Origin: Mycobacteriales bacterium
GTDB taxonomy: Bacteria; Actinomycetota; Actinomycetes; Mycobacteriales; QHCA01
Length of the DNA stretch: 64,000 nucleotides
Assembly (NCBI GenBank): GCA_038276285.1
Contig: JBBPZR010000002.1
Span: forward strand, 23,454-87,453
Direction of reading: 5' to 3'
The translations under genes and the position numbers were made by a program. Below, piece by piece: positions 18,077 through 54,924 of this stretch. The notes under the pieces were generated by a model. The model was not told the DNA's origin. It did no database searches and worked only from the letters and a program-made list of their open reading frames with translations. Position 1 is the first letter of the stretch; the number at the start of each line of letters is the position of its first letter.

Positions 18077-18150
18077 TGCCCCCGGTCGGGCTCGAACCGA
18101 CACTGACATCACTTTTAAGGCGATGGCCTCTGCCATTGGGCTACGGGGGC
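18077..18150 (-). tRNA. class-I tRNA with anticodon UAA (nominally Leu by anticodon; isotype uncertain)
   Basis: The reverse complement reads GCCCCCG-UA-GCCC-AAUGGCAG-AGGC-C-AUCGC-CUUAAAA-GUGAU-GUCAGU-GUCGG-UUCGAGC-CCGAC-CGGGGGC-A. It has a 7-bp acceptor stem, a canonical T-arm, a 5-bp anticodon stem and loop CUUAAAA (U33, UAA, A37). The variable region is only 5-6 nt. Confidence 0.7.
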
Positions 18151-35848: not shown

Positions 35849-38553
<2,705 letters not shown>

Positions 38554-38579
38554 CGGGCCAAGCCGATCGGGGAGGGAAC

Positions 38580-39944
38580 GTGGACCAGCCCAGCTGGACG
38601 CCGAGCCCTGACGAGCGGGCCGACCTGGAACTGCTGCTCGCCGGCGGGTATCCGCCGCTGACCGGCTTCATGGGGTCCGCCGATGTGGCGTCCGTGCGGG
38701 CTGGTGGGCGGCTGGCCGACGGCACGCCCTGGCCGGTGCCGGTAATCCTGGAGGTCCCGCCCGACGTAGCGGCCTCGGTGGTTCGCGGGCGCGTCACCTT
38801 GACCGATCCCGAGGGTGCCCCGGTGGCCACGATGGACGTCACCGAGATCTGGGACGCCGCCGACGGCCGGCAGTTCGTCGCCGGCCCGGTGCGGCCACTG
38901 GCCCCGCCGGCCTACGGCGCCTTTCGCCGGCTGCACCTGACCGCGGCCGAGGTACGCGAGCACCTCGGCGGCGCGCCGGCGCTCGCCGTCATCACCGGAG
39001 GGCCACTGCACTGCCGCGAGATCGCCGCCGTCCGCGCGGGCGCCGAAGCCCTGCCCGCCGATGCACGGATCCTGCTGCTGGTGCCCACGGCGGCGCCCGG
39101 CAGCGAGGCGTTGATCCGGTTGGTGCTGGCCGCCGCCGGCGACCTGCCACGGTCGATGGTGGTTGCCGTGCCACTGCCGCGGCCCGACGGGTCGGTCGCC
39201 GAGAGGCAGCGGGTCGCCCATGTTGCGGCGGCCTACGGCGCCACGCAGGTCTTCGCGGCCGCGGACCCCCCGGCCCTTCCCGACGGCGAGCTCGGGGCGC
39301 TGCTGGACGCCGGCGCCCCCTTGCCCGCCGGGTTCACACCACCCGCGGTGGAGCGCGAGCTGCGCCGGGCCCGGCGCACGCTGACCCAGCGCGGCCTCGT
39401 CGTGCTGTTCACCGGGTTGTCCGGGTCGGGCAAGTCGACGCTCGCCCGCGGGCTGCACGACGCCGTGGCCGAACGCGGCGATCGTACGGTGACCCTGCTC
39501 GACGGCGATGTCGTACGCCGGATGCTCTCGGCCGGCCTGAGCTTCAGCCGCGCCGACCGCGACCTCAACGTCGCCCGCATCGGGTTCGTGGCCGCCGAGG
39601 TGGGCCGGCACGGCGGAATCGCCATCTGCGCGCCGATCGCACCGTACGCGCGGACCCGGGCCGAGGTCCGCGCCATGGCTGAGGCAGTGGGGAGCTTCGT
39701 GCTGGTCTGGGTGGCGACGCCGTTGGCGCGCTGCGAGGAGCGCGATCGCAAGGGCTTGTACGCCCGGGCCCGGGCCGGTCAGTTGACCGGTTTCACCGGC
39801 ATCGACGACCCGTATGAGGAACCATCGGATGCTGACCTGGTGATCGATACGTCGACCAGGGGTGTGGATGATTGCGTACGCGAGGTGGTCGAACTGTTGC
39901 AACGTGGTGGCTGGCTGGCAGCCGAACCGGGACCGACGCCGTGA
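38580..39944 (+). CDS. cysC: adenylyl-sulfate (APS) kinase fused to an N-terminal ATP-sulfurylase-like domain that looks catalytically degenerate
   Basis: The C-terminal domain has the P-loop FTGLSGSGKST, LDGDVVR, NVARIGFVAAEV and APIAPY. The N-terminal ~270 aa resembles the PUA-like plus sulfurylase fold (LELLLAGGYPPLTGFM). In place of QxRNPxHRxH it has VITGGPLHCREI, and I see no GRDHAG motif. Confidence 0.85.
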   Translation: MDQPSWTPSPDERADLELLLAGGYPPLTGFMGSADVASVRAGGRLADGTPWPVPVILEVPPDVAASVVRGRVTLTDPEGAPVATMDVTEIWDAADGRQFVAGPVRPLAPPAYGAFRRLHLTAAEVREHLGGAPALAVITGGPLHCREIAAVRAGAEALPADARILLLVPTAAPGSEALIRLVLAAAGDLPRSMVVAVPLPRPDGSVAERQRVAHVAAAYGATQVFAAADPPALPDGELGALLDAGAPLPAGFTPPAVERELRRARRTLTQRGLVVLFTGLSGSGKSTLARGLHDAVAERGDRTVTLLDGDVVRRMLSAGLSFSRADRDLNVARIGFVAAEVGRHGGIAICAPIAPYARTRAEVRAMAEAVGSFVLVWVATPLARCEERDRKGLYARARAGQLTGFTGIDDPYEEPSDADLVIDTSTRGVDDCVREVVELLQRGGWLAAEPGPTP

Positions 39945-40888
39945 GTCTCGGGCTGACTGCCGTCAGCTTCTTCATCGGGATCATCGTCGGGCTCACCGGC
40001 ATGGGCGGTGGCGCGCTCATGACTCCCGTGCTCGTGCTTTTCTTCGGCATCCAGCCGCTGGCCGCCGTGTCCAGCGACCTGGTCGCCGCGGCGATCATGA
40101 AGCCCTTCGGCAGTGCCGTGCACTTGCGCCGCGGCACGGTGCATCTCGGGCTGGTCAAGTGGCTGTGTCTCGGCTCGATTCCGAGTGCCTTCTGCGGCGT
40201 CCTGGTCACCAGAGCACTGGGTCACGGCGACCGCTTGCAGGCGGTCGTGAAGACCTCGCTGGGCGTCGTACTGGTGATCGCCGCCTTCTCGCTGATCATC
40301 AAGGCCTACCTCGGCATGGTGCAGCGGGCGCGCAAACGCACCACCGGAGCCACTCAGCCGCGCGACACGGCGTCGGAGACGCTGCGGATCAGGCCGCTGC
40401 CAACCGTACTCATCGGCGTGGTCGGCGGGCTGGTCGTGGGCATGACCTCCGTCGGCTCCGGATCGCTCATCATCATCGCGCTGATCGTGCTCTATCCCCG
40501 GCTGCAGGCCTCCCAACTGGTCGGCACCGACCTGCTCCAGGCGGTGCCCCTGGTGTGTTCCGCGGCGCTGGGCCACATCCTCTTCGGCGACTTCAAGCTC
40601 GGGCTGACGACATCGCTGGTCATCGGCGCGGTCCCCGGCGTCCTGCTCGGGGCCACCATGTCGGCCCGTGCCTCCGGCGGGCTGGTCCGCCGGGCGCTGG
40701 CCCTCGTACTGCTGGCCTCCGGACTCAAACTGCTCGGCGTGAACAACGTCGCCATGGCGGCCATCCTGATCGGGATCGGGTTGGTGGGCCCACCACTGTG
40801 GATGTGGGCACGTAAGCGGCATGGCTTCTCGGCCCTGGCGCGTGGGCCGATCGGGCGGCGGCGTCCCCGTGAACCAGCGGGGCAATAG
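39941..40888 (+). CDS. TauE/SafE-family anion permease (sulfite exporter or putative sulfate importer type)
   Basis: Trimmed to GTG 39941 (GTGA overlap with cysC). It has FFIGIIVGLTGMGGGALMTP and a repeated second half GLVVGMTSVGSGSLII, with 8 TM segments. Confidence 0.8.
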   Translation: MSLGLTAVSFFIGIIVGLTGMGGGALMTPVLVLFFGIQPLAAVSSDLVAAAIMKPFGSAVHLRRGTVHLGLVKWLCLGSIPSAFCGVLVTRALGHGDRLQAVVKTSLGVVLVIAAFSLIIKAYLGMVQRARKRTTGATQPRDTASETLRIRPLPTVLIGVVGGLVVGMTSVGSGSLIIIALIVLYPRLQASQLVGTDLLQAVPLVCSAALGHILFGDFKLGLTTSLVIGAVPGVLLGATMSARASGGLVRRALALVLLASGLKLLGVNNVAMAAILIGIGLVGPPLWMWARKRHGFSALARGPIGRRRPREPAGQ

Positions 40889-40981
40889 CGCTGCGCCGGG
40901 TGAGCGAGCGCTATGCTCGCATCGGCAAAATGAGTCAAGACCCATCTTGGCGCGCATCTTTGAGTCAGTCGACGCGGGGAC

Positions 40982-41011
40982 TTGCCGCGTATGCTCACGA
41001 ACCGCTATGGT
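40982..41011 (+). promoter_or_regulatory. candidate promoter for riboswitch A and GH gene A
   Basis: TTGCCG, an 18-nt spacer, then TATGGT (TANNNT). The -10 ends 6 nt before the block GACCGCGCGGCCAC, which is conserved in both copies. Confidence 0.3.
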
Positions 41012-41058
41012 CGCGCCGACCGCGCGGCCACACGCTGCCATCCGGGCGCCCGGGCGAT

Positions 41059-41193
41059 CACCGCCGAATTTCGACCGCCTGGCCGAGGCGACTCGAGAGC
41101 CTGGGACCCAACAAGCCCCGGGGGTGAATCGGTGCCTCCGGGCCCCGTAGAGAGTTCTTCCCACCCGAATCCTTAGCTAACTCGGTAGGCGGC
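41059..41193 (+). promoter_or_regulatory. c-di-AMP riboswitch (ydaO/yuaA class), copy A
   Basis: It contains CCGCCGAAUU...GAGCCUGGGACCCA...CGGGGGUGAAUC...CACCCGAAUCCUUAGCUAACUCGGUAGGCGG. P1 is CCGCC/GGCGG. The blocks match conserved ydaO blocks (CGCUUAAUC, GGGGACCCA, GGGGUGAAUC, CCCGAAUCC..AGCUAACCUCGUAAGCG). It ends 5 nt before the RBS GGAAGAGGAG. Confidence 0.85.
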
Positions 41194-41211
41194 CACCGGA
41201 AGAGGAGTCTG

Positions 41212-42321
41212 TTGAGCATGGCAAGGCGCTCAACCCACGCCGCGGCTCCTGTTCGGCGCACTCGACGGCGCGATCTGGTTCACCTCACGGCGATTGCCGC
41301 CGTCCTTATCCTGCTTGTTAGCGCCGAAGATCAGCGGTCCGCCGCGAATATCAAGCACGTGCCACGACACGTCGCGCGAGACGTCTTGGCCCAGGATCAA
41401 CTTGGCGACGTCCCGTCGCGCGGCACGATCAATCGCCCCGTGTCAGTGCTCGCGGGGAAAGCTCGGGCGCCCGCCATCCGCTCGTCACGCTCGAAGCTGG
41501 CGGTCTCCAACCGGGGCGCGAGCGGTTTCCTCTATCTCGGCGCGGCGGGCGACTCCGTGGGGCTATCTCGCAGTGTCGGGGTGTCCCTGTCAGACCACGC
41601 GTACGCGCACTTCAACGGCGGCGTCCCAGCGGGTCGGATGATCACCGTGGAGGCCGGCGGAACATGGCGCAGCGTGGCCACCGCCGGGCCGGGGTCCGCC
41701 ACGTACAACGACATCGTCCGGTGGGCCAACACGATCAGGACCCGCCCAGGGCCGGTTCTGTTTGCCTACCACCACGAGCCAGAGGCCAGTTTCGACACCG
41801 GCCTCGGCGCGTCCACCGACTTTATCAACGCCTGGCGCCGGGTGGTCACCATCTTCCGGGCACAGGGGGTGCACAACGTCATCTACACCTGGCAGATGAC
41901 GGCGTGGTCGTTCCGCACCTCACCGAGCGACCGGCAGTACGCAGCGAAGTGGTACCCCGGCGACGACTACGTCGACGACGTCGGTGCAGACGCCTACAAC
42001 TGGGCCTCCTGTGGGCAGGGTCGCGGCGTGTGGCAGTCATTTAGCGCTCTGGCCGATCCGGTCGTCGCGTTCGCCCGGGCGCACCACAAGCAGGCCGCCT
42101 TTCCGGAGTTCGCCAGCCAGGCCGGATCGAGCCGAGCCCAATGGGTCCGGGATGCTTTGGGCTATCTCGAGACTCACCGCGGTAGCGTCCGGTCAGCCTT
42201 CTACTTCCAGCGCCCACCCACGACGGCCGGCGGAGCTGACTGCCACTGGCCGCTGGTCACCGCCGGTGAGTTCTCCGCCTTCGGCGCGCTCGCCCGCAAC
42301 CGGACGTATTTCTCGCCGTAG
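41212..42321 (+). CDS. secreted or membrane-anchored clan GH-A glycoside hydrolase (GH26/GH5-like), paralogue 1
   Basis: An N-terminal TM anchor (LTAIAAVLILLVSA), acid/base block LFAYHHEPE, then YTWQMTAW, GADAYNW, and the nucleophile block AAFPEFAS. TTG start at 41212, or ATG at 41218. Confidence 0.7.
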   Translation: MSMARRSTHAAAPVRRTRRRDLVHLTAIAAVLILLVSAEDQRSAANIKHVPRHVARDVLAQDQLGDVPSRGTINRPVSVLAGKARAPAIRSSRSKLAVSNRGASGFLYLGAAGDSVGLSRSVGVSLSDHAYAHFNGGVPAGRMITVEAGGTWRSVATAGPGSATYNDIVRWANTIRTRPGPVLFAYHHEPEASFDTGLGASTDFINAWRRVVTIFRAQGVHNVIYTWQMTAWSFRTSPSDRQYAAKWYPGDDYVDDVGADAYNWASCGQGRGVWQSFSALADPVVAFARAHHKQAAFPEFASQAGSSRAQWVRDALGYLETHRGSVRSAFYFQRPPTTAGGADCHWPLVTAGEFSAFGALARNRTYFSP

Positions 42322-42362
42322 GACATGCCACCCTTGGCATCCACGAGACGCCCGGTTGCCGC

Positions 42363-42390
42363 TTGTGACCGGCGAAAACGGTGCTAACCT
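42363..42390 (+). promoter_or_regulatory. candidate promoter for riboswitch B and GH gene B
   Basis: TTGTGA, a 16-nt spacer, then TAACCT (TANNNT). The -10 again ends exactly 6 nt before GACCGCGCGGCCAC. Confidence 0.3.
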
Positions 42391-42438
42391 GCCGAGGACC
42401 GCGCGGCCACGTTCGCCCTCCCGGGCGCCCGAGCGGTC

Positions 42439-42572
42439 ACCGCCGAATCTAGGGTGCACATCGGCAAACGTGCACCCGAGCCGGGGACCCACAGTTCCTG
42501 GGGTGAGTCGGTGCTTCGGCACCGTAGGGCATCTCTTCCCGCCCGAACCCGTCAGCTAACTCGGTAGGCGGT
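42439..42572 (+). promoter_or_regulatory. c-di-AMP riboswitch (ydaO/yuaA class), copy B
   Basis: CCGCCGAAUCU...GAGCCGGGGACCCA...UGGGGUGAGUC...CCGCCCGAACCCGUCAGCUAACUCGGUAGGCGG. The architecture matches copy A, with compensatory differences in the variable hairpins. The RBS GGAAGAGGAG lies 6 nt downstream. Confidence 0.85.
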
Positions 42573-42596
42573 TTTAGGAAGAGGAGTCACGTCCTG

Positions 42597-43604
42597 ATGC
42601 CCTATCCGTCGTCCCGGCAGGGACTCCATCGCGCGTTGCCCGCCCCCGGCGCCCACCGGGCCGCTTGGGGCGCGTCGGCTGCGCGCGCAAGTATGCTCGA
42701 TTTCCACCGTCCACGCCGCCGCAGGTTGGCCAAGCCGTCGATCCTGGGCAGCCTGCTGGCCCTGGTCGTCGGCTTTATCCTCGTGGCGCCAAACGCCAAT
42801 GCCACCACGCTCACCTACATCGGCGCGGCCGGTGACGAGACGGGCCTGTCCCAGAAGATCAACGCGCCGCTGGCGCGGCACTCCTATGCGCACTTCAGCA
42901 GCGGCGTGCCCGCCGGCCAGATGATCACGGTGGAGGCCAGCGGTTCGTGGGCGAGCGTCGCGTCCGCCGGACCGGGCACCGCGGTGTACAACGACATCGT
43001 GCGCTGGGCGGACACGATCAAGACCCGCCCAGGTCAGGTGCTGCTTGCCTACCACCACGAGCCGGAGGCCAGCTACGACACGAAGCTCGGCACGTCCGCC
43101 GACTTCATCCGTGCCTTCCGCCACGTGGTGACCATCTTCCGCAATCGCGGGGTGAAGAACGTCGTCTACACCTGGCAGATGACCGCGTGGTCGTTCAGGA
43201 CGTCACCCTCCGATTCGCGCTACGCCCCCAAGTGGTACCCGGGGGACGCTTACGTCAACACCGTCGGGGCCGATGCCTATAACTGGTACACCTGTGGGCA
43301 CGGCAAGGGTCGCTGGCAGGAGCTCAGCTACCTCGGTGATCCGGTGTTGGCCTTCGCCCGGGCGCACGCCAAGAAAGCATCGTTCCCGGAGTTCGCCAGC
43401 ACGGCGGCCTCGGCGCGGGCCCAGTGGCTGATCAACGCTCACAAATACCTCGTCGCGAGCCGCGGCACCGTGCAGGCCGCGTTCTACTTCCAGCGGGGAC
43501 CCACGGTGTCGGCGAACAGCGACTGCAAGTGGCCACTCACCACATCGGCCGAGTTCAAGGCCTACGGAGACATCGCACGGGACACCAGCTATTTCCGGAC
43601 CTGA
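42597..43604 (+). CDS. secreted clan GH-A glycoside hydrolase (GH26/GH5-like), paralogue 2
   Basis: A signal-like N-terminus (SILGSLLALVVGFILVAPNANA), then LLAYHHEPE, YTWQMTAW, GADAYNW and ASFPEFAS. It is highly similar to paralogue 1. Confidence 0.7.
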   Translation: MPYPSSRQGLHRALPAPGAHRAAWGASAARASMLDFHRPRRRRLAKPSILGSLLALVVGFILVAPNANATTLTYIGAAGDETGLSQKINAPLARHSYAHFSSGVPAGQMITVEASGSWASVASAGPGTAVYNDIVRWADTIKTRPGQVLLAYHHEPEASYDTKLGTSADFIRAFRHVVTIFRNRGVKNVVYTWQMTAWSFRTSPSDSRYAPKWYPGDAYVNTVGADAYNWYTCGHGKGRWQELSYLGDPVLAFARAHAKKASFPEFASTAASARAQWLINAHKYLVASRGTVQAAFYFQRGPTVSANSDCKWPLTTSAEFKAYGDIARDTSYFRT

Positions 43605-43654
43605 GCCCGCCTAAGTATTGGTTTAAATATGGCGTGGGTCTCAGAGGCTTTACC

Positions 43655-43870
43655 GTTGTGTCATGGCTGACAGCGCGCACGTTCCGTGGCCTCCGAGTTG
43701 GGTCGCGGTGGGATCAACGCGGTCGCGGAGGCGACGGGCACGCATCCGGACACCGTCGCGCGGGGTGTCCGGGAGGTAGCAGATCCGGCAGGGCGGCGAC
43801 CGCGGGTGCGGACCCCGGGTGGCGGTCGCAAGAAGCTGACCGAGACCGACCCGCAGTTGTCAAGCGGTGT
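43655..43870 (+). pseudogene. ISAzo13-like transposase N-terminal fragment (frameshifted, truncated)
   Basis: ASELGRGGINAVAEATGTHPDTVARGVREV...RVRTPGGGRKKLTETDPQL resembles the HTH N-terminus of ISAzo13-type transposases. It is preceded by an unusually AT-rich junction (TAAGTATTGGTTTAAATATGG, 43611-43631) and cut off by the next relic. Confidence 0.5.
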
Positions 43871-43904
43871 TGTTGATCTCTGTGGGTTCCTCCACCGCCG
43901 CCTC

Positions 43905-44430
43905 CCTGCCGGAGGGCAGGGTTGAGGAGGTAATAGACCTCCCGAGCGAGATAGCGCTTCAGGCAGCGGATGGGCTCGAGTTTGGAGTGGCCTTCGGCGG
44001 TCTTCTTCGCGACCCAGGCCTGGGTGCGTTCGTCGACGCGCATGCAGGTGATGACGGACCAGATGCAGCGTGGAGTTGGCTTGCCGGTCTCCGCCACGGT
44101 TGAGCCGGTGGCGTTGGGTCGTGCCTGAGATTGCCGGGAGTGGGGCGACACCACAGAGCATCGCGAACGCGGCCTCGGTGCGCATCCGTTGCCGGTTGTC
44201 GCCGGCGGTGACCAGTAACTGTCCGGCCACCTCAGCGCCCATGCCCCCAGGCGAGCAGTTGCGGGGCGAGCGCGATGACGATCGGCTCGATCAGCCCGTC
44301 GAGGGTGGCGATCTCATCGCCGAGTTCGAGGATGCGCCGGGCTAGGGACTTCAACGCGATCCGGTTGGCACTGACCGGCGCACCGGCCGGGCTGCTCGTA
44401 AACGTCACGAACCGGTCGATGCCACCCGAC
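43905..44430 (-). pseudogene. IS110-family transposase C-terminal fragment (frameshifted)
   Basis: Two frames read: ...ARRILELGDEIATLDGLIEPIVIALAPQLLA..GAEVAGQLLVTAGDNRQRMRTEAAFAMLCGVAPLPAISGTTQRHRLNRGGDRQANSTLH, then (shifted) VITCMRVDERTQAWVAKKTAEGHSKLEPIRCLKRYLAREVYYLLNP. The N-terminal DEDD domain is missing. Confidence 0.65.
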
Positions 44431-44504
44431 CCGCGACGCGTCTTGGCGGCGGTTGTTATGGCGGAGGGCTTCAGTCGGACGCCCTTGGGCCCGATCCCTC
44501 ATCA

Positions 44505-45989
44505 ATGAGAAGACACCCCTCCCTCGTCCTTGCGTCGTGGCAACCGACCCCACGAATGCTGCTCGACCGGATGCACAGCATCTCCCGCCGCGGCCCCGCC
44601 GCGGCCGCCGTGATCGCGTGCGGTGCAGCGTTCGCGCTGACCGTCGGCGGTGGGTCGCCGGCCGCGCTCGCCGCAACGGCCGGCACGCTCGACCTCTCCG
44701 CCGCGGGTGACACCTACGTGTCCTCGGCCTATCCGAACACCAACTACGGCACGAGCGGTGTGCTCACCGCGGGTAGTGCCGCCGCCAACCGGCAGATCGC
44801 GTACCTGAAATTCCCCGTGTCCGGGATCCCTGTCGGCGCAACGGGGGTCACCGTACAGCTGCAACTGAGCAGGACCACCCATCACCTGCCCTCGTCGCTG
44901 AGCCTCTCGGCGGTCGCGAGCACGACATGGTCGGAGACCGCGCTCACCTACAACACACGGCCGGCGCTGGGTGCGACGCTGGGCACGGTGTCCCCGACCT
45001 CGACGACGAATACGGTCACCTTCCCGACCAACGTCACCGGCAACGGTGCGTACGCCTTCGCCGTGACGGCGCCGACGACCACCACCACCGCGCGGTTCAA
45101 CTCCAGCACCGGCAGCACCCCGACACCGACACTCAAGGTCAGCTACACCAAGCCGCCGCCGGCGATCTGGATCGGCGCCGCGCACAACACCCCCGACACC
45201 TCGATCACAGCCTTCGATTCAGCGAACGCCACAATCGGCCCGCTGAAGGTCCACCGTTCCTTCGACAGCACGTTGCCTGCGACATTCGCGAAGTCCAGCG
45301 GCAAGGACGACGCCGCGCACGGCTATGCGTCCTTCGTGTCGTGGAAACCACCGGGCGGTGACTTCGTGGGTGCAGCGAACGGCGCATACGACGCTGCCAT
45401 CACGGCTTGGGCCAAAAGCGTCCCCACGACCGGGGTGTTCGCGACCTCCTACCACGAGCCCGAGGACAACATGACCGGCCCGCAGTTCGTCGCCCTGCAG
45501 CGACACCTCTACACGGTGGTCAAGGCCGCCAACCCGACGATCCAATGGGGCCCGGTCCACATGAGCTACTGGTGGAAGAACCCCTCCGCCATCGGCAAGG
45601 TCAGCCCGTCGAGCCAGGACTCCTGGGACGTCGGGGACGCCTACCGCGACTTCACCGCCGTCGACAACTACAGCCGCACCCCACTTTCCTTGCAGACCGA
45701 TCCGCAGTTCCACAGCTGGTATGACTTCTTTCTCGCGAAGTCGACCAAGCCGCTATTCATCACCGAGTACGGGCAGTACGTCGTCCCGCCCGGCGGCACC
45801 GCCGACCCGAACATGCAAGCCGCGCGCGCAGCCGTGATCAAGACCGATGCCACATGGCTGGCCACCCAGCCGCGAATCCAAATGTGGCTCTACTGGGACG
45901 GCACCGGCTCCGCCGGCGACTGGACCCTCACCGACACGGCCTCGCAGACCGCTTGGAAGGCTGCCGCGCTCGTGGGACGGACCAGCTAG
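44505..45989 (+). CDS. secreted two-domain protein: N-terminal DNRLRE-type beta-sandwich domain plus clan GH-A glycoside hydrolase, paralogue 3
   Basis: A signal-like N-terminus, then AAGDTYVSSAYPNTNYG...ANRQIAYLKF...WSETALTYNTRP (DNRLRE/CBM-like pattern). The catalytic part has SYHEPED, MSYWW, and the nucleophile block FITEYGQ. Confidence 0.7.
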   Translation: MRRHPSLVLASWQPTPRMLLDRMHSISRRGPAAAAVIACGAAFALTVGGGSPAALAATAGTLDLSAAGDTYVSSAYPNTNYGTSGVLTAGSAAANRQIAYLKFPVSGIPVGATGVTVQLQLSRTTHHLPSSLSLSAVASTTWSETALTYNTRPALGATLGTVSPTSTTNTVTFPTNVTGNGAYAFAVTAPTTTTTARFNSSTGSTPTPTLKVSYTKPPPAIWIGAAHNTPDTSITAFDSANATIGPLKVHRSFDSTLPATFAKSSGKDDAAHGYASFVSWKPPGGDFVGAANGAYDAAITAWAKSVPTTGVFATSYHEPEDNMTGPQFVALQRHLYTVVKAANPTIQWGPVHMSYWWKNPSAIGKVSPSSQDSWDVGDAYRDFTAVDNYSRTPLSLQTDPQFHSWYDFFLAKSTKPLFITEYGQYVVPPGGTADPNMQAARAAVIKTDATWLATQPRIQMWLYWDGTGSAGDWTLTDTASQTAWKAAALVGRTS

Positions 45990-46018
45990 CGGCTTTGTAC
46001 GCGGCACCTTGTCGACGA

Positions 46019-46050
46019 GACCGGTGCTCGGGCTACTCCGAGCGCCGGTC
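46019..46050 (+). terminator. strong hairpin downstream of paralogue 3 (candidate intrinsic terminator, no clear U-tract)
   Basis: GACCGGTGCTCGG-GCTACT-CCGAGCGCCGGTC is a 13-bp stem (one G.U pair) with a 6-nt loop, 30 nt after the stop codon. Confidence 0.45.
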
Positions 46051-46074
46051 TGTCACCTGAGCGGGCAGCGAGAC

Positions 46075-46380
46075 GTGGCGTACACGCGAGAGTGCGAGAT
46101 CCCGCCCCGATGGGTCAAGGCGGTCCAGAAGCTGTCCCGGCTCAACTGCATGGCCCCCGGCAAGGACTACACATACGTGCTCGACTTCGCCAATGAAGTC
46201 GAGGCCTTCCGGGTCGCGCTCAAGCCGTTCTATGAGGTTCCTGACCGAACCGACCGACCCGAACGTGCCATTCAACCTGCGTACCCGGATCATGAGCCAC
46301 GCGGTCATCGACACCGAGGAGGTGCGGGAGGTGGTCGGCGCGCTGCCCAACATGCGGGAGAAGGCGCCCGCCGCCGTGCG
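46075..46380 (+). pseudogene. type I restriction enzyme R-subunit (HsdR) C-terminal fragment, frameshifted
   Basis: VKAVQKLSRLNCMAPGKDYTYVLDFANEVEAFRVALKPFYE, then (+1 frame) LTEPTDPNVPFNLRTRIMSHAVIDTEEVREVV. This matches the conserved HsdR region ...QTLSRLNR..PGK..TFVLDF.N....I..AF.PYYE....E.TDPN.L..L. No helicase part is present. Confidence 0.6.
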
Positions 46381-46895
46381 AATACCGACCCGGGCCGATC
46401 ATCGATCACGGGCCGCGGGTCAAGGCCCTCGACATGCCGGTACGGGTGGAACAGCGCCGGGCGAAGCTCGTACGACTCGACGCGCTCACGAAACACCGTG
46501 ATGAGCATCGATCAACTGGACGCCGCAATTGTTGACTCGCAGCCGCCCTTGGTGAGTCCGGCGACCGGATTCTTGCTGAGACTGGGTATCGCCCGCGGCA
46601 GAGGGCCAAGCTCACGGAACGCCGCCAGTATTCCAGGGCCCAGAGATGAGACTGCCGCACCTCGGTCTGAGGGCGCTTCGTAGCCGAGCTGACTGCTGGC
46701 GAGCGCAGGCGGTGAGGTCGAGCAGAGTTTCCTCCTGAGGCACCTGCGGTCTTCCGGGTACGGCAGTTCCTGCGGCAGCGCTCAGTGACATTGAGCAGGA
46801 GCAGGGTGGGAGGGCACTCGGATGGCCTGCTGCTGCTCAGCGGTCGGCTGCACTATTTCATTTTGTCGCGCATCCTCACTCAGCGTTTTCAGCGC

Positions 46896-47855
46896 TCAGG
46901 CGGCGTTGACAGCAGCTTTCCACGCGACCGTGGCATTTGAGGTGTTCGAGGTGGAGGGAATCGGCGGGTTGCTATAGCGCAACTCCCAGTCGGCCCGACC
47001 GCCTAGGGAGTCCCAGTACTCGCACATCACGGCACCCTTGGATTTGGCGTAGCTCACGACGGCGGTAATGGCATTGGCCTTGCGCATGGGGTCGTTGATG
47101 TCCGCGAGGTAGCCGAACTCCGAGATACCCCAGGCCGTGTTATGTGCGACGGCGAATTTGTACGACGGGCCGAGCAGCGTCGATGCGCTCAGCCAGGCGC
47201 CGCCATCGGTGTAGCCAATCGGGCAACAGGTGGTACCGGTATTGTGCGGCTGGGAGTAGGCGTCGACAGAGATCAGGTCAGCGGTGTTGGCGCCGGCGGC
47301 ATCGGTGGGCCAGTAGTTGGCCGGGTCGCGCGACTTGAAGCCAATGAAGGTGACCCTCATCAGGATCACGGAGACCCGGCGGGTGCCGCCGTCGGCGGCG
47401 TTCTGCGCGTGCACCAGACCAGCCAGATGGGTGATCGAGTCCCGGAACTGTTGCGCGGTGAACATGCCGGCGTCGATTTCCTGCTCCGGCTCGTGATAGT
47501 TGGTCAGAATGATGTTCTTCGGCGTCGAGGCGATGAAGGTCCGCAGGAGGCCGTCAACGGTGCCGGCGGCCACGTCAGCCGGCGGCAGATTGAACGAGTA
47601 GTCGTTGGCCGGCGAGCGTGGATGTGCTCTGTATGAGTCGGTGTCCTGCCAGGTCGCGAAATGCCACCCGGTGTCGTAGCCGCGATAGATCTGGACCGGG
47701 CCAACACTGGCGTCGTACCACGACCAATTCTTCGACCATCCGCCGAGCAGCGTCGGGCTGGTGGCACCCGCGGGTGGCGCGGCAAGCGTTAGGGCCGCGG
47801 TCAGCGCCGCAGCCAGTACCGCGCCGAGCGTGGTCGTGCTATGACGCCAGCGCAT
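46896..47855 (-). CDS. secreted clan GH-A glycoside hydrolase, divergent paralogue 4
   Basis: Trimmed to ATG 47855 (RBS AAGGGGGAG). It has the signal peptide MRWRHSTTTLGAVLAAALTAALTLAAPPAGA, acid/base TNYHEPE and nucleophile GISEFGY. Confidence 0.65.
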   Translation of the reverse strand: MRWRHSTTTLGAVLAAALTAALTLAAPPAGATSPTLLGGWSKNWSWYDASVGPVQIYRGYDTGWHFATWQDTDSYRAHPRSPANDYSFNLPPADVAAGTVDGLLRTFIASTPKNIILTNYHEPEQEIDAGMFTAQQFRDSITHLAGLVHAQNAADGGTRRVSVILMRVTFIGFKSRDPANYWPTDAAGANTADLISVDAYSQPHNTGTTCCPIGYTDGGAWLSASTLLGPSYKFAVAHNTAWGISEFGYLADINDPMRKANAITAVVSYAKSKGAVMCEYWDSLGGRADWELRYSNPPIPSTSNTSNATVAWKAAVNAA

Positions 47856-48476
47856 GTGCTGACTCCCCCTTGTTGTGGTTGCCTTGCCGCCAAACGTCCC
47901 GAGAATCGTGCTCATCCAAGCTATCGAGGCAGGGCAGCGGACGTTATGGGCTAACCTGTCGACGTTCATGGTTCTTTATGACTACCTCCTGTCGTCACTC
48001 ATACCCGACTTCCGCAGTTGGTAGGCAGATTCGGCCATGTTCAAGAGGCATCGTCGAAGGTCATCCCTGAAGGAGTGTGGGGCCGGTCATGGGGGTGGTC
48101 TTCGTTGTATTTGCGTTTCTCCACCGACTTGTCGGCGCGCCGGGCTAAGGCGTCGGGGTCAAGGTGCGGCCGGAGGCCGCCCGCGTAGCGGCCGAAGGGC
48201 CTTGACGCCAGCGCCGACCGGCGCAGCATTCAGGTGGAGGAACGGTGGTCCGGAGCGCCTCCGCGGTTGGGTGTTCCGATGTGGGCTGTTGGCTTCACGG
48301 CCGGGTCCCGGCCACTGACGGTCCTGGGTGGGGCGTCGAGTCATCCCTTCGCCGCGCGGTGGGCGGCATGAAGCGCTTCGACGTGCATGCGGTCGGCGGG
48401 GTCAATCAGAGGGGGCGACCTCGCCGTGGACGGGGGTCATGACCTGCACGGCCCGCGCCGACCGCGGTCGAGCGGC

Positions 48477-48995
48477 TCATCCGGTCGGGCTCAGGCAACG
48501 CAGCTGCCCGTCGCGCAGCGCGTAGAAGACCAGCGTCAGCTGTTCACGGGCCGCGGCGACGATCCCGATGTTGCGGCCGCGACGGGCCGTCACGCGCTCG
48601 CGGACGGCACCGATCCGGCTGGTTTGGGGCAGCATCTGCACCGACTCCACCGCCGCCCAGCGGACCAGCCGGGAACCCTGCTTGGTGATCCGTCCGCGGC
48701 GCACGTGGGTGTCGGACTCGTGATGCTTGGGGGTCAGCCCGGCCCAGGACGACAGCTGTGCCGGGCCGCCGAAGCGGTGCACGTCGCCGATCTCGGCGCA
48801 GAACACCGCGGCCAGCGTCGGCCCGATCCCGCCGATGGTCTGAACCGCCCGGTAGCCGGGGTCATTGGCCAGCCGGGCCGGCAGCATGCCCGCGAACAGG
48901 TCGATCTCGAAGTCGACGGCGGCGATCAGCCGGCGCGCCGAGTCCACCCGACTGCGGTAGGGCTCGGGCAGCGCGACCCGGTCGAGCAGCTCACT
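48477..48995 (-). pseudogene. IS110-family transposase C-terminal fragment (N-terminal catalytic domain missing)
   Basis: PGYRAVQTIGGIGPTLAAVFCAEIGDVHRFGGPAQLSSWAGLTPKHHESDTHVRRGRITKQGSRLVRWAAVE is the conserved IS110 C-domain. The upstream part of the ORF is non-homologous junk. Confidence 0.7.
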
Positions 48996-49480
48996 GCCTC
49001 CCGCGGGGCTTTGTCGCGGGAGGAGTCGTAGCGCTGCTGAAGGCGTTGGCATGGACTCCGACAAAGAGCCGCGGAGTCGGCGGCAGGAATCTTCTCGCCA
49101 CATCCACGGGGCGCTGGGTCGTGAGCGACAGAGAGTAGTTCGACCACAAGTACCTCTGGGGCATTGCCTTCTGGTCGCTGCCGACGTGGCGGCTTCCCGC
49201 GGCACAGGCTCGGTCCGCTGACAGCGGCCCTTCCAGGTTCGCCGCGACCGAACGTCGCCCAGCCGGAGGTCGAGTGGACCGTCTCTGCAGAGTATCGAAG
49301 AGCGCACGGTCCGCAGTCACATCCAAAGCAAGTGCGCGGAGGCTGCGGCCTCGGCCAGGCGGTGGTGTCGCCGGCTAGCTGAGATGTCGTTGAACATGCA
49401 GGCCGGTCGCCGTACAACAGCTGATCGTTCTACCGGCGTGGCGCACGCCGGACCAGCCGGAACGCGTCGGACCAAATGGC

Positions 49481-49514
49481 GGACCGGCGGACGGGATTCT
49501 CCGACCGCCGGTCC
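49481..49514 (-). terminator. strong hairpin downstream of paralogue 5 (candidate terminator)
   Basis: GGACCGGCGG...CCGCCGGTCC has 10-bp perfect arms, extendable to about 13 bp. It lies 23 nt after the stop at 49537. On the minus strand it is followed by GCCAUUUGG. Confidence 0.45.
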
Positions 49515-49536
49515 TGAGACCACTCGAGCACAGCGA

Positions 49537-51021
49537 CTAGCTGACCCGACCTGTCACCGCGATGTTCCGCCACGCCTTCTGCGACGCGGCGTCGGTCAGG
49601 CTCCAGTTGCCCTGCGCGCCGGTGCCGTCCCAGTAGAGCCACATCTTGATCCGGCCCTGCGACTTGATCCAGGCCGCGTCGGTGGCGATCACCTGGGCGC
49701 GCTTGGCCTGCATGGTGGGGTTGGCGACGGTGCCCGGCTTCACGACGTACTGCCCGTACTCCGCGATGAGCATCGGCACGCTCTTGTCGAGCATAAAATT
49801 GTACCAGCTCATGAACTCGGGGTCGACGTTAAGCGCGAGGACCGTGGCCGAGTAGGTGTCGACCGCCGTGAAGTCGGCGTACCCGCTCCCGACCCACCAG
49901 GCCTGGGCGCCGCCCTTGCCGGCCAGCCGGGTCGGCTGCCACCAGTAGCTCATGTAGACCGGACCCCAGTGAATGGTCGGGTTGGCCCTCTTCACCACCG
50001 TGTACAGGTGCCGCTGCATGGCCACGAACTGCGGCCCGGTCATGTCGTTTTCCGGCTCGTGGTACGCGGTCGCGTAGACGCCCGTGGCCGGCACCGTCTT
50101 AGCCCACGCCGTCACCGCGGTGTCGTACTTGCCGGCCGCGGCACCGACGAAGTCGCCGCCAGGGGGCTTCCAGGAGACGAACGACCCGTGGCCTTGCGTG
50201 GCGTCGTCCTTGGCGCTCGACGTGGCGAAGCTGGCCGGCAGCGTCGAGTTGAACGAGCGCCGCATCTGCAGGGGCCCGATGGACGAGTTCGCCGCGTCGA
50301 AGCTGCTGATGCTGGCGTTCGGCACGTTGACTGCGGCGCCTACCCACATCGACTTCAGCGGAGGCGGCGTGTAGCTGACCGTCAGCGTCGGGCGCGGGGT
50401 GGCTCCGTCCTTCGCGTCGAAGCGGGCGGTGTCCGTCGTCGTGGCGGCGGTCACGGCGAAGGCGTACGTCCCATTGCCGCTTACTTTCGCGGCGAAGGCG
50501 ATGGAGCCTGTAGCCGAGGTGGGATACGCCGTGCCGAGGGACGTGCCCACCGGCGGCGCGTTGCGCATCGTGAGCGTGGATTCCGACCACGCCGTGATGG
50601 GCACCGTGGCTGCGCTCACCTGAGGGGGAAGGTGATGCGCAGTCCGGCTCAGCTGGAGCCTGGCGCTGATGCCAGTCGCGCCGGTCGGCACGCCCGCCAC
50701 GGTGAACTTCAGGTAACTCAGCCGCCGGTCGCGGTTGGCGCTGCCGGCGATCAGAATGCTCGAGGCGCCATAGTTCGCGTTCGGGTGGGCTGCGGAGACG
50801 TAGGAGTCCGCGACGGCGCCGAAGACCAGGCTCGGGGTCGAGGCCATCGCCGGCGACGGGCCGCCGGCGATCGTGGTGCCGACGGCGGTGGCGCATGCGA
50901 CCGCGGTGAGCACCGCTATCCGACGCCGGGCATAGCGTCGCAGCGAGGCGGCGGCAGACTGGCTGGGTGACCCGACGCGAGACTGTGCGGCGGCCCGGGA
51001 AGGGTTCGGGAGTGTGTGCAT
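49537..51021 (-). CDS. secreted DNRLRE-type domain plus clan GH-A glycoside hydrolase, paralogue 5 (inverted partner of 44505..45989)
   Basis: Also 494 aa and about 60% identical by eye to paralogue 3. Motifs are VADSYVSAAHPNANYG...NRDRRLSYLKF, AYHEPEN, MSYWW and LIAEYGQ. Confidence 0.7.
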   Translation of the reverse strand: MHTLPNPSRAAAQSRVGSPSQSAAASLRRYARRRIAVLTAVACATAVGTTIAGGPSPAMASTPSLVFGAVADSYVSAAHPNANYGASSILIAGSANRDRRLSYLKFTVAGVPTGATGISARLQLSRTAHHLPPQVSAATVPITAWSESTLTMRNAPPVGTSLGTAYPTSATGSIAFAAKVSGNGTYAFAVTAATTTDTARFDAKDGATPRPTLTVSYTPPPLKSMWVGAAVNVPNASISSFDAANSSIGPLQMRRSFNSTLPASFATSSAKDDATQGHGSFVSWKPPGGDFVGAAAGKYDTAVTAWAKTVPATGVYATAYHEPENDMTGPQFVAMQRHLYTVVKRANPTIHWGPVYMSYWWQPTRLAGKGGAQAWWVGSGYADFTAVDTYSATVLALNVDPEFMSWYNFMLDKSVPMLIAEYGQYVVKPGTVANPTMQAKRAQVIATDAAWIKSQGRIKMWLYWDGTGAQGNWSLTDAASQKAWRNIAVTGRVS

Positions 51022-51161
51022 GCGAATGGTGTCGGCCCTTCGAGTGACAGGCTTGAGAAAATCCGCTGGCGCCTCGGCCGGCGGATGGCTCGACCGGACG
51101 GCTCGGTCCGGCGATCAGGTACGGTCCACGGTTCGACGGGTCGCACTAGCCAGGGAGGGTC

Positions 51162-51992
51162 ATGGCCGGGTTGCTGCTGATGCTCGCCGGCGGCGTGCTG
51201 GCTGTCTGCGCCGTCGGCGGCCTTGTCCTGACGCATCCCGTCCGACCGACGACGTGGCGCCGGGGCGGCGCGGCGCGGCGCCTGGTCGCCGCCCGCCACG
51301 AGCTGGTCGCGGCACTCGGCGCATCAACCGCCGCGGTCGTGGTGCTCCTCGCCGGCGTGGCCGCCACGGTCATCGTGTGCTGGCCGCTGGGCCGCCTTGC
51401 CGGCGGGCTGGAGCGGTCGGTCGACCTGCCGGTCTTCCGCTGGGGCGCCAGGCACCACTATCACGGCTGGATCCGGGTCAACGAGCTACTGACCCTGATG
51501 GGCAACCGGCCGCAGGTGAAGGCGGTCTGTCTCGTCTCGGCGGTGGTGCTGGCCTTGCTATGGCGGCGTCGCGGGTGGTGGGTGCCGCCGGTCGTCATCG
51601 CTTCGGCGTTCGGCTTCGAGAAGTACGGGCAGAAGCTGCTCGCGCTGGTCGTCCACCGCGGCCATCCGCCGACAACGCGGGGCACGTACCCCTCAGGCGG
51701 GGTTGCCCGGCTCGTGGCGATATACGGCGTCATCCTGTTCCTGGTGCTATTCACCTATCCCGGGGTCGGCCGCCGGTGGCGGGTGGCGCTGTGGACCATG
51801 TTCGGCATCGCCGCTTTCGTCGAGGGCTACACCCGGATCTACCTGCTCAAGCACTGGTTCACCGACGTCGTGGGGGGTTGGGTGTACGGCTCGCTGCTGC
51901 TGGCCACGCTGATCGCCGCGGCTTCGACGCTCGTGGAGCGCAACCGCGAGGAAGGACCCACGGCTGGATCGGCCTGGCGCGGGCGACGTTAA
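51162..51992 (+). CDS. PAP2-like membrane phosphatase family protein (variant motifs)
   Basis: About 6 TM segments. YPSGGVAR stands in place of PSGH, and TRIYLLKHWFTDVVGG fits SRxxxxxHxxxD. The family assignment is tentative. Confidence 0.5.
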   Translation: MAGLLLMLAGGVLAVCAVGGLVLTHPVRPTTWRRGGAARRLVAARHELVAALGASTAAVVVLLAGVAATVIVCWPLGRLAGGLERSVDLPVFRWGARHHYHGWIRVNELLTLMGNRPQVKAVCLVSAVVLALLWRRRGWWVPPVVIASAFGFEKYGQKLLALVVHRGHPPTTRGTYPSGGVARLVAIYGVILFLVLFTYPGVGRRWRVALWTMFGIAAFVEGYTRIYLLKHWFTDVVGGWVYGSLLLATLIAAASTLVERNREEGPTAGSAWRGRR

Positions 51993-52182
51993 GCAAGCCA
52001 CTGACTACGGAGCGCTGCGAAACCGGCCGCAGTGGTGACCGCTCGCGGCCGTGGTTCGGCCGTTCGGGTTGAGTGCGCGGCGAGTACGTGCATGCATCGG
52101 CGGCGCCGAAATGCGCGCGGTAGGCTGGCTGGGTGCCACGGTGGCGCTCCCTCGGGAGCGAGCGAGGGAAGAGCAGAGGTGA

Positions 52183-54920: not shown

Positions 54921-54924
54921 CTCA

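What the first reader, a model, noticed from the sequence alone, without database searches (positions are those of the whole stretch)
41059..41193. ydaO-type c-di-AMP riboswitch controlling a glycoside hydrolase gene (copy A)
Seen: all the blocks I know from the ydaO/yuaA class occur in order: CGCCGAAUU, GAGCCUGGGACCCA, GGGGGUGAAUC and CACCCGAAUCCUUAGCUAACUCGGUAGGCGG. The closing helix CCGCC/GGCGG ends 5 nt before the RBS GGAAGAGGAG. Known: this class binds two c-di-AMP molecules. In Actinobacteria it is best known upstream of peptidoglycan-remodelling genes (rpf, NlpC/P60) and elsewhere upstream of K+ and osmolyte transporters. Inference: here it controls a clan GH-A polysaccharide hydrolase, which would extend c-di-AMP control to glycan or EPS turnover. 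I see no terminator hairpin. The aptamer segment UUCUUCC (41155-41161) can pair with the GGAAGA of the SD, which suggests translational control.
Basis: partly seen in the sequence, partly recalled or inferred. Interest (0 to 1): 0.7.

Follow-up and report, generated by a model that had tools for sequence, protein, structure and literature searches.

The report
Eroded c-di-AMP riboswitch before GH26 gene
This is a genuine but mutationally damaged copy of the well-known c-di-AMP riboswitch in front of a secreted GH26-type sugar-cleaving enzyme gene; an intact twin lies 1.4 kb downstream, and the riboswitch-enzyme pairing recurs across many actinobacteria.

Summary
Rfam RF00379 matches 41052-41206 at 40.4 bits (gathering score 38, E 6e-6), so the call passes only narrowly.

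A second copy at 42431-42585 scores 85.6 bits. Each copy precedes a paralogous secreted GH26 (lichenase-like) gene. The two proteins are 65% identical.

The pairing is conserved. In 43 homologous loci from GTDB genomes, 35 carry RF00379 directly 5' of the gene, at 60-97 bits.

Copy A is the outlier. It departs at 7 of 58 near-invariant aptamer positions, whereas 29 of 39 relatives depart at none. Helix P7 is broken (GGGC/GCCC has become GAGA/ACCC), P3 has a mismatch, and the P5-P3 linker has lost a G and carries C>U.

P1, P2, P5, P6 and the pairing between the P7 loop and the Shine-Dalgarno sequence (UUCUUCC with GGAAGAG) survive. That pairing is the known translational OFF pseudoknot of this class.

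Gene A is intact and constrained (dN/dS 0.16). There is no terminator.

Verdict: a real c-di-AMP riboswitch homologue with a translational platform, but an eroded copy whose ligand response is doubtful. It is a new member of a known kind and of modest interest.

The parts
40982..41011 (+). Predicted promoter of module A: -35 TTGCCG at 40982-40987 and -10 TATGGT at 41006-41011, 18 nt apart. The inferred transcription start is near 41018.
   Evidence: TTG and TAnnGT/TAnnCT blocks are conserved at the same spacing in 11 aligned leaders. The generic sigma-70 consensus scan found nothing. This is an inference from conservation and has not been mapped.
41018..41058 (+). 5' accessory hairpin 'P0' between the predicted start and P1. 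The outer stem is GACCG 41018-41022 with CGAUC 41054-41058. It carries a C41020/A41056 mismatch in copy A.
   Evidence: fold_alignment finds compensatory changes in the outer stem. In 31 of 36 leaders the hairpin ends 0-3 nt before P1.
41052..41206 (+). RF00379 (c-di-AMP / ydaO) match, copy A.
   Evidence: 40.4 bits against a gathering score of 38, E 6.1e-6, model 1-134; the same in L044.
41061..41065 (+). P1 5' strand CCGCC, which pairs with GGCGG at 41188-41192. The helix is intact.
41071..41096 (+). P2 hairpin: UCGA-C-CGCCU, loop GGCCG, AGGCG-AC-UCGA. Its sequence is unrelated to P2 of copy B, but it is still a stable hairpin.
   Evidence: read directly from the sequence
41099..41104 (+). 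P3 5' strand GCCUGG, which pairs with CUCGGU at 41181-41186. U41102/C41183 is a mismatch; the other 40 aptamers have G here.
   Evidence: At pair 55/156 the only unpaired cell is winA.
41122..41124 (+). P5 5' strand GGG, which pairs with UCC at 41170-41172. C>U at 41170 gives a G-U pair, the only one among the 40 aptamers with letters at that pair.
41130..41147 (+). P6 hairpin CGGUGCC-UCCG-GGCCCCG, with one U/C mismatch.
   Evidence: read directly from the sequence
41150..41166 (+). P7 region. The 5' strand is GAGA (41150-41153; consensus GGGC), the loop is GUUCUUCCC (41154-41162), and the 3' strand is ACCC (41163-41166; consensus GCCC). Only 2 of 4 pairs can form.
   Evidence: At P7 pairs 120/137 and 122/135 the only broken cells among 41 aptamers are winA.
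41173..41180 (+). P5-P3 linker UUAGCUAA. The consensus is GUCAGCUAA: the G is deleted between 41172 and 41173, and 41174 is C>U.
   Evidence: The linker lies at binding site 1 in the Thermoanaerobacter RNA (PMC11963983).
41155..41161 (+). Pseudoknot 5' strand UUCUUCC in the P7 loop, which pairs with GGAAGAG at 41198-41204.
   Evidence: duplexfold gives -9.0 kcal/mol for 7 pairs. The mechanism is taken from PMC11963983.
41198..41207 (+). Purine tract GGAAGAGGAG: the pseudoknot 3' strand plus the Shine-Dalgarno core AGGAG at 41203-41207.
41218..42321 (+). Gene A: a secreted or membrane-anchored GH26-like hydrolase of 367 aa starting at ATG 41218 (a TTG lies at 41212 in the same frame).
   Evidence: PF02156. 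It equals P0001. The catalytic Glu are conserved. dN/dS is 0.16 against the closest homologue.
42431..42585 (+). Copy B: the intact c-di-AMP riboswitch of the neighbouring module.
   Evidence: RF00379 at 85.6 bits; 0 departures at the 58 conserved columns.
42597..43604 (+). Gene B: the paralogous GH26-like hydrolase of 335 aa, 65% identical to gene A.

Best explanation
Copy A is a true evolutionary copy of the c-di-AMP (ydaO-class) riboswitch. It belongs to a conserved module made of a promoter, a 5' hairpin (P0), the aptamer, a pseudoknot that occludes the SD, and a secreted GH26 lichenase-like hydrolase gene.

The module is built as a translational OFF switch. Ligand binding to the two pockets (P3/P5 and P1/P7) stabilises pairing of the P7 loop (UUCUUCC) with GGAAGAG. 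That tract overlaps the Shine-Dalgarno sequence, which lies 5 nt after P1 and 10 nt before the ATG, so the pairing blocks the ribosome.

In this genome, copy A has been eroded in its own lineage. P7 has lost 2 of 4 invariant pairs, P3 has a mismatch, P5 has a G-U pair, and the linker at site 1 has lost a G and carries C>U. P0 also has a mismatch. The most likely consequence is a weakened or lost c-di-AMP response for gene A, while the pseudoknot and SD pairing may persist as a ligand-independent damper. The intact copy B keeps normal control of gene B.

Shown: homology, architecture, conservation of the module, and the specific defects. Inferred: the mechanism (by analogy to the Thermoanaerobacter and C. 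glutamicum switches) and the functional consequence of the defects.
For: - RF00379 hits: copy A 40.4 bits, copy B 85.6 bits.
- 35 of 43 GTDB homologue loci carry RF00379 immediately 5' of the gene at 60-97 bits.
- Gene A clusters with an 'A-type' clade (NJ tree). The members with 5' sequence (L001, L045, L046, L048) have 73-88-bit riboswitches, so the erosion is specific to this lineage.
- Copy A departs at 7 of 58 columns that are conserved in at least 37 of 39 relatives. 29 of 39 relatives depart at 0, and the maximum among hits above the gathering score is 5.
- The broken cells at P7 pairs 120/137 and 122/135 and at P3 pair 55/156 belong to winA alone among 41 sequences.
- 6 of the 7 changes lie in the P7/P5'/linker stretch (Fisher p = 0.04).
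- The copy-A-specific junction was not found in any riboswitch in the metagenome collection: 26 hits, all unrelated.
- Pseudoknot: each loop pairs better with its own tail than with other tails (-9.65 vs -8.51 kcal/mol, permutation p about 5e-5). Copy A keeps 7 pairs.
- No terminator.
- A pseudoknot that sequesters the SD has been demonstrated for this class (PMC11963983). Translational control has been reported in C. glutamicum (PMC9960051).
- Gene A is intact, with dN/dS 0.16.
Against: - Copy A still passes the Rfam gathering score and keeps 51 of 58 near-invariant positions, P1, P2, P5, P6 and the pseudoknot. dS to the nearest known homologue is saturated (about 1.3). Such retention argues for continuing selection on at least part of the RNA.
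- Single-site disruptions of the Thermoanaerobacter riboswitch raise the EC50 but do not abolish the response (PMC11963983), so a lower-affinity switch remains possible.
- I could not map the mutated positions onto ligand contacts, because the primary structure papers were not available.
- No close relative with a 5' region is available to show whether the changes are fixed or conserved.
Confidence: 0.6

Rival explanations
1. Copy A is a fully functional c-di-AMP riboswitch. It represses translation of gene A when c-di-AMP rises, and its deviations are tolerated.
For: It passes the Rfam gathering score. P1, P2, P5, P6, most junction nucleotides and the SD pseudoknot are intact. It has its own conserved promoter, and gene A is under purifying selection.
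Against: Its score is 20-57 bits below every homologue that reaches the gathering score. Three of the eight P7 nucleotides are changed without compensation, although they never vary in the other 39 relatives that pass the gathering score. The site-1 linker has a deletion. The variant junction recurs nowhere else.
Confidence: 0.25
2. Copy A is an adapted variant: a one-site or low-affinity c-di-AMP sensor, or a sensor of a different ligand. The two tandem GH26 paralogues would then switch at different thresholds.
For: The changes cluster in one sub-domain (P7, P5 3' strand and linker), while the rest of the RNA is kept. Engineered riboswitches with one site disabled still respond, over a shifted and broader range (PMC11963983). 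Tandem modules recur in other genomes: L014 and L052.
Against: No second example of this variant was found. The changes are uncompensated mismatches rather than covarying pairs. Both pockets, not just one, carry altered invariant nucleotides. P0 is also mismatched.
Confidence: 0.12
3. The match is a chance resemblance, or an assembly artefact of copy B.
For: The score is only 2.4 bits above the gathering threshold.
Against: The E-value is 6e-6 in the window. The position and orientation match those of 35 homologous modules. The promoter and P0 leader are shared with copy B and with orthologues. P2 and P6 differ from copy B, so it is not a misassembled duplicate. An identical sequence occurs in a second assembly.
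Confidence: 0.02

Closest known systems
c-di-AMP riboswitch (ydaO/yuaA, Rfam RF00379), translational type: the Thermoanaerobacter pseudethanolicus 'riboCdA' (PMC11963983)
   Same: Same order of helices P1-P3 and P5-P7 and same junction motifs (GAAU, GGGGACCC, GGGGUGAAUC, CCCGAA, AGCUAAC). The P7 loop pairs with the 3' tail that contains the SD. There is no terminator. An OFF switch acting on translation is expected.
   Different: Copy A has a broken P7, a P3 mismatch and a shortened, mutated P5-P3 linker, and scores 40 bits. It and its relatives carry an extra 5' hairpin (P0) that is not in the Rfam model. Ligand binding is untested.
Actinobacterial ydaO riboswitches before cell-wall hydrolase genes: S. 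coelicolor rpfA, C. glutamicum nlpC, and the S. lividans secreted peptidases and transglycosylase (PMC9960051, PMC10117811, PMC8079986)
   Same: High-GC actinobacterial host, a secreted hydrolase as the regulated gene, no canonical terminator, and translational control suspected or shown through pairing of a CUCC-like tract with the RBS.
   Different: The regulated enzyme here is a GH26 lichenase-like glycoside hydrolase, not a peptidoglycan peptidase or lytic transglycosylase. I found no paper in the searchable library describing this gene class under ydaO control.
Copy B of the same window (42431-42585) and the 35 orthologous or paralogous leaders in L001-L048
   Same: Same promoter, P0 leader, aptamer, pseudoknot/SD and GH26 gene. 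The SD tract GGAAGAGGAGUC is identical.
   Different: Those copies have 0-5 departures at the 58 conserved columns and score 60-97 bits. Copy A has 7 departures and scores 40.4 bits.
GH26 lichenase Lic26A (CelH) of Clostridium thermocellum (PDB 2bv9 and related entries)
   Same: A profile of the gene A/B family matches it at E 5e-19. The HE(P/A) acid/base Glu and the (P/A)EFAS nucleophile Glu are aligned.
   Different: The similarity is low. The actinobacterial family has an N-terminal signal peptide or anchor and no CBM. Its substrate is unknown.

Membership tests
Rfam RF00379 c-di-AMP riboswitch | Covariance-model score at or above the curated gathering score (38 bits) | tested here: met
   40.4 bits, E 6.1e-6, full-length match. 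The result is marginal: relatives score 60-97 bits.
Rfam RF00379 c-di-AMP riboswitch | Both three-way junctions present with helices P1, P2, P3 and P5, P6, P7 | tested here: inconclusive
   P1, P2, P5 and P6 can form. P3 has one U/C mismatch. P7 keeps only 2 of 4 pairs (GAGA/ACCC). WinA alone accounts for the broken cells at pairs 120/137, 122/135 and 55/156 among 41 aptamers.
Rfam RF00379 c-di-AMP riboswitch | Invariant junction and pocket nucleotides (GAAU, GGGGACCC, GGGUGAAUC, GUAGGGC, GCCCGAACCCGUCAGCUAAC) | tested here: not met
   51 of 58 near-invariant columns are kept. The 7 changes are at 41102, 41151, 41153, 41163, 41170 and 41174, plus a deleted G after 41172. The 5' half is intact and the 3' half is altered.
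Rfam RF00379 c-di-AMP riboswitch | Binds two c-di-AMP molecules | not testable with these tools
   This needs in-line probing or ITC. The structure papers needed to map ligand contacts were not available.
Translational c-di-AMP riboswitch (pseudoknot type) | The P7 loop is complementary to the 3' tail that overlaps the SD, and there is no intrinsic terminator | tested here: met
   UUCUUCC 41155-41161 pairs with GGAAGAG 41198-41204, -9.0 kcal/mol. Across the family, own-tail duplexes average -9.65 kcal/mol and cross-tail duplexes -8.51, p about 5e-5. No terminator.
Translational c-di-AMP riboswitch (pseudoknot type) | cis position: same strand, immediately 5' of the regulated ORF, with the association conserved in homologues | tested here: met
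   P1 ends 5 nt before the SD tract, and the ATG is 10 nt after AGGAG. 35 of 43 homologous loci have RF00379 in the same place.
Glycoside hydrolase family 26 (clan GH-A) | Pfam PF02156 match above the curated cut-off | tested here: met
   Gene A 38.4 bits and gene B 27.4 bits against a cut-off of 20.2; both matches are partial.
Glycoside hydrolase family 26 (clan GH-A) | Two catalytic glutamates (acid/base and nucleophile) | tested here: met
   E187 (in HEPE) and E297 (in PEFAS) of P0001 are invariant in 20 homologues. They align with E109 and E222 of Lic26A. The catalytic roles of those two residues are recalled from my own knowledge of Lic26A.
Glycoside hydrolase family 26 (clan GH-A) | Hydrolytic activity and substrate | not testable with these tools
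   No biochemical data were found for this actinobacterial subfamily.

The most novel reading that the evidence does not exclude
c-di-AMP may control a widespread, uncharacterised family of secreted GH26 lichenase-like enzymes in Actinomycetota, through a riboswitch subclass with an extra 5' hairpin (P0). That would extend the messenger's reach from peptidoglycan hydrolases to a non-peptidoglycan envelope glycan or exopolysaccharide. In this window the genes sit inside what looks like a sulfated-polysaccharide locus. Copy A could then be a natural low-affinity or one-site derivative that gives the two tandem paralogues different c-di-AMP thresholds.
Probability: 0.2. Interest if true: 0.55.

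Novelty: new member of a known kind. Interest (0 to 1): 0.35.

Why it matters
The riboswitch class and its translational pseudoknot mechanism are already known, so the element itself is not new. Three points add modest value.

1. The tight association of RF00379 with a GH26 lichenase-like family (35 of 43 loci). The loci are labelled Mycobacteriales, Modestobacter/Blastococcus, Nocardioidaceae, Propionibacteriales, Terrabacter/Intrasporangium and Frankiaceae. This association does not appear in the literature I could search, where the actinobacterial regulon is described as peptidoglycan hydrolases. It points to an unstudied glycan-remodelling enzyme under c-di-AMP control.

2. Copy A is a natural example of a riboswitch decaying, or being re-tuned, while its gene stays under selection, and an intact paralogue sits next door as a built-in control.

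3. A covarying 5' hairpin abutting P1 is not part of the Rfam model.

The result also warns annotators that a hit just above the gathering score can be a damaged copy.

Tried and rejected
- I tried to read the primary papers to map ligand contacts and gene lists: Nelson 2013 (PMC3830699), Block 2010 (PMC2916388), Ren & Patel 2014 (PMC4217635) and Jones & Ferre-D'Amare 2014 (PMC4282576). None is held. Site assignments therefore rest on PMC11963983 only.
- I folded copies A and B by MFE. Neither reproduces the native pseudoknotted fold, so this says nothing about function, although both MFE structures contain the loop-SD pairing.
- I scanned the metagenome collection for the copy-A-specific junction CCGAATCCTTAGCTAAC. 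It gave 26 hits, all unrelated sequence. There is therefore no evidence for a conserved variant class, but also no closer relatives.
- I looked for the 5' region of the closest homologue (P0002, 75% identity). The contig L052 starts inside the gene, so it gives no orthologous leader; it shows only that a second riboswitch follows the gene.
- The Rfam P4 mini-helix (CA/UG) was not supported in my MAFFT alignment: 8.5% of cells paired, which is probably misalignment. I did not use it.
- An E-value-level Rfam scan of 38000-47000 found no third riboswitch before the CBM96/GH-like gene at 44505.
The source organism is an unnamed high-GC actinomycete, and the nearest named relatives are Mycobacteriales MAGs.
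- I rejected the chance-match and misassembly explanations (see rival explanations).

Full report
**Observation**

- CGCCGAAUU at 41062-41070
- GAGCCUGGGACCCA at 41097-41110
- GGGGGUGAAUC at 41120-41130
- CACCCGAAUCCUUAGCUAACUCGGUAGGCGG at 41162-41192

CCGCC 41061-41065 closes with GGCGG 41188-41192. Five nucleotides later comes GGAAGAGGAG at 41198-41207. The ATG at 41218 lies 10 nt after AGGAG. UUCUUCC at 41155-41161 is complementary to GGAAGAG at 41198-41204.

cmscan of the whole window against Rfam 15 gives RF00379 at 41052-41206 on the + strand. The score is 40.4 bits against a gathering score of 38, with E 6.1e-6 and the full model matched. A second and much stronger hit lies at 42431-42585, at 85.6 bits. 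No terminator-like site lies on the + strand here.

**What is around it**

Each aptamer sits directly before a paralogous ORF. Gene A runs 41218-42321 (367 aa) and gene B runs 42597-43604 (335 aa). The two proteins are 65% identical over the catalytic domain.

Both match Pfam GH26 (PF02156), though only partially. A profile of 20 homologues finds the C. thermocellum lichenase Lic26A (CelH) as the closest solved relative, at E 5e-19. The HE(P/A) glutamate and the (P/A)EFAS glutamate are aligned. Both proteins begin with Arg-rich N-termini followed by a hydrophobic segment, so they are probably exported (read from the translations).

The two leaders share a block that also aligns with nine homologous leaders:
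- a -35-like TTGnnn and a -10-like TAnnGT/TAnnCT. For copy A these are 40982-40987 and 41006-41011; for copy B, 42363-42368 and 42385-42390.
- a 5' leader of about 40 nt.
- the aptamer core and the SD tract.

P2 and P6 are entirely different between the two copies. The copies are therefore old paralogues and not an assembly duplication. A Logan assembly of the same locus (L044) reproduces both.

**Is the module conserved?**

A scan of GTDB species representatives with a profile of the protein returned 43 loci. Their record titles name Mycobacteriales, Modestobacter, Blastococcus, Nocardioidaceae, Propionibacteriales, Terrabacter, Intrasporangium, Phycicoccus, Nostocoides, Microbacterium, Frankiaceae, Sporichthyaceae and Jatrophihabitantaceae.

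Rfam finds RF00379 at or above the gathering score immediately 5' of the gene in 35 of the 43 loci, at 59.7-96.8 bits. One further locus (L041) scores 36.7 bits, and seven have none. Additional metagenomic contigs (L045, L046, L047, L048, L053) give 78-88 bits.

Tandem modules like the one in this window also occur elsewhere. L014 has two riboswitches, each before a GH26-like gene. L052 has another riboswitch after the closest homologue of gene A.

The association between the riboswitch and this GH family is thus a conserved regulatory unit. The literature I could search describes the actinobacterial ydaO regulon as peptidoglycan hydrolases: Rpf, NlpC/P60, peptidases and transglycosylases (PMC9960051, PMC10117811, PMC8079986). 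It does not mention GH26.

**Copy A is the odd one out**

I aligned 41 aptamers (A3). In 58 columns, at least 37 of the 39 reference sequences carry the same residue. Copy A departs at 7 of these columns:

| Window position | Change | Structural element |
|---|---|---|
| 41102 | G>U | P3 |
| 41151 | G>A | P7 5' strand |
| 41153 | C>A | P7 5' strand |
| 41163 | G>A | P7 3' strand |
| 41170 | C>U | P5 3' strand |
| after 41172 | G deleted | P5-P3 linker |
| 41174 | C>U | P5-P3 linker |

By comparison, 29 of the 39 references depart at 0 columns, and the worst hit above the gathering score departs at 5. L041, which is below the gathering score, departs at 12.

Pair counting on a named structure shows where copy A breaks:
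- P7 (GGGC/GCCC) is nearly invariant. Pairs 120/137 and 122/135 each have a single broken cell among 41 sequences, and both belong to copy A. Copy A reads GAGA/ACCC, so only 2 of 4 pairs can form.
- The single broken cell at P3 pair 55/156 also belongs to copy A.
- The single G-U in P5 is also copy A's.

Six of the seven changes fall in the P7/P5'/linker stretch (Fisher p = 0.04).

Two further results bear on how the changes arose. A neighbour-joining tree places gene A, together with P0002, in an 'A-type' clade. The members of that clade with known 5' regions (L001, L045, L046, L048) have 73-88-bit riboswitches, so the damage arose in copy A's own lineage. A scan of the metagenome collection for the copy-A-specific junction CCGAAUCCUUAGCUAAC found 26 matches, and none is a riboswitch. 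There is therefore no sign of a conserved variant class.

Gene A itself is not decaying. Its dN/dS against the closest homologue is 0.16, with dS about 1.3, and it keeps all residues that are invariant in the family.

**How it most likely works**

The architecture leaves no room for a terminator. P1 ends 5 nt before the purine tract, and the start codon follows 10 nt after AGGAG.

In the T. pseudethanolicus c-di-AMP riboswitch, a long-range pseudoknot forms between nucleotides 83-88 and 125-130 in the 3' tail. It sequesters the SD, and the bound state is a translational OFF state. In that RNA, site 1 lies between P3 and P5 with the P3-P5 linker at the pocket, and site 2 lies between P1 and P7, capped by the pseudoknot (PMC11963983). 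The C. glutamicum nlpC riboswitch also acts on translation (PMC9960051).

In the GH26-associated leaders, the P7 loop is complementary to the tract that overlaps the SD. The pairing partners change together across clades:
- CUCUUCC with GGAAGAG
- CUUCUUCC with GGAAGAAG
- CCUUUUCC with GGAAAAGG
- CCUUCUC with GAGGAGG
- UUUCUUCCG with CGGAAGAGA

Duplexes between a loop and its own tail average -9.65 kcal/mol, against -8.51 for loops paired with other tails (permutation p about 5e-5, not corrected for phylogeny).

Copy A keeps 7 of these pairs (-9.0 kcal/mol). Its output device is therefore intact, while both ligand pockets carry altered invariant nucleotides: P7 for site 2, and P3, P5 and the linker for site 1.

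My best reading, at 0.6, is a weakened or lost c-di-AMP response, with copy B retaining normal control. The main rival, at 0.25, is full function. An adapted low-affinity variant, at 0.12, is supported only by the clustering of the changes and by the finding that single-site mutants of the Thermoanaerobacter RNA still respond with a higher EC50.

**Limits**

- I could not map the changed positions onto atomic ligand contacts, because the structure papers are not held.
- There is no close relative with a 5' region.
- MFE folding is uninformative for this pseudoknotted RNA.
- The promoter, the transcription start and the role of P0 are inferred from conservation only.

**Comparison and novelty**

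Copy A works like, and descends from, the known translational c-di-AMP riboswitch. Membership by Rfam score is met marginally, and the invariant-nucleotide and P7 criteria are not fully met.

The element is a new, damaged member of a known kind. The gene class it controls (GH26 lichenase-like) and the P0 leader are the modestly new aspects. Interest: 0.35.

Noticed in passing
window 41018-41058 and 42398-42437; also the leaders of L002, L010, L013, L020, L021, L039, L045, L046 and others: A conserved two-tiered hairpin ('P0') lies between the predicted transcription start and P1. It ends 0-3 nt before P1 in 31 of 36 leaders and shows compensatory changes: GACC/GGUC, GAUC/GAUC, GACUG/CAGUC and GAUCA/UGGUC. 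It is not part of the Rfam RF00379 model. In copy A it carries a C/A mismatch.
   Followed up: partly
window 38580-40888 and 44505-61954: The two riboswitch-GH26 modules sit inside what looks like a sulfated-polysaccharide locus. Upstream are an APS-kinase/PUA_2 protein (PAPS synthesis, 38580-39944) and TauE (39872-40888). Downstream are a CBM96/DNRLRE protein with a distant GH-A-like C-terminus (44505-45989), DUF3048 (53889-54920), a Wzy_C-like protein (54925-56358) and three sulfotransferases (56258-58480, 59604-61010, 61010-61954).
   Followed up: partly
window 43661-44242 (-) and 48477-49307 (-): IS110-family transposase fragments. The first lies between gene B and the CBM96 gene. Neither looks like a full-length transposase.
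   Followed up: no
window 1114-1204 (-) and 18077-18150 (-): A tRNA-Sec gene (RF01852, 70.2 bits) and an ordinary tRNA. The organism therefore probably makes selenoproteins.
   Followed up: no
L041 2079-2235 and 2495-3297: A second degenerate riboswitch: 36.7 bits, with 12 departures spread over the whole aptamer. It lies before a GH26-like gene whose tblastn match is split over two reading frames. This is either a pseudogenised module or a long-read frameshift error.
   Followed up: partly
L014 2127-2276 and 3535-3687; L045 2243-2397 and 3670-4884; L052 1009-1111: Tandem GH26 paralogues recur in other genomes. Sometimes each gene has its own riboswitch (L014, L052), and sometimes only the first does (L045).
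   Followed up: partly
L045, L046, L048 (flanks): In the A-type clade the module lies after an ABC-2 type transporter pair (ABC_tran and ABC2_membrane). It also lies near an ECF sigma factor, DUF4245, a kynureninase-like gene, glpX and xseAB. This context differs from the one in the window.
   Followed up: no
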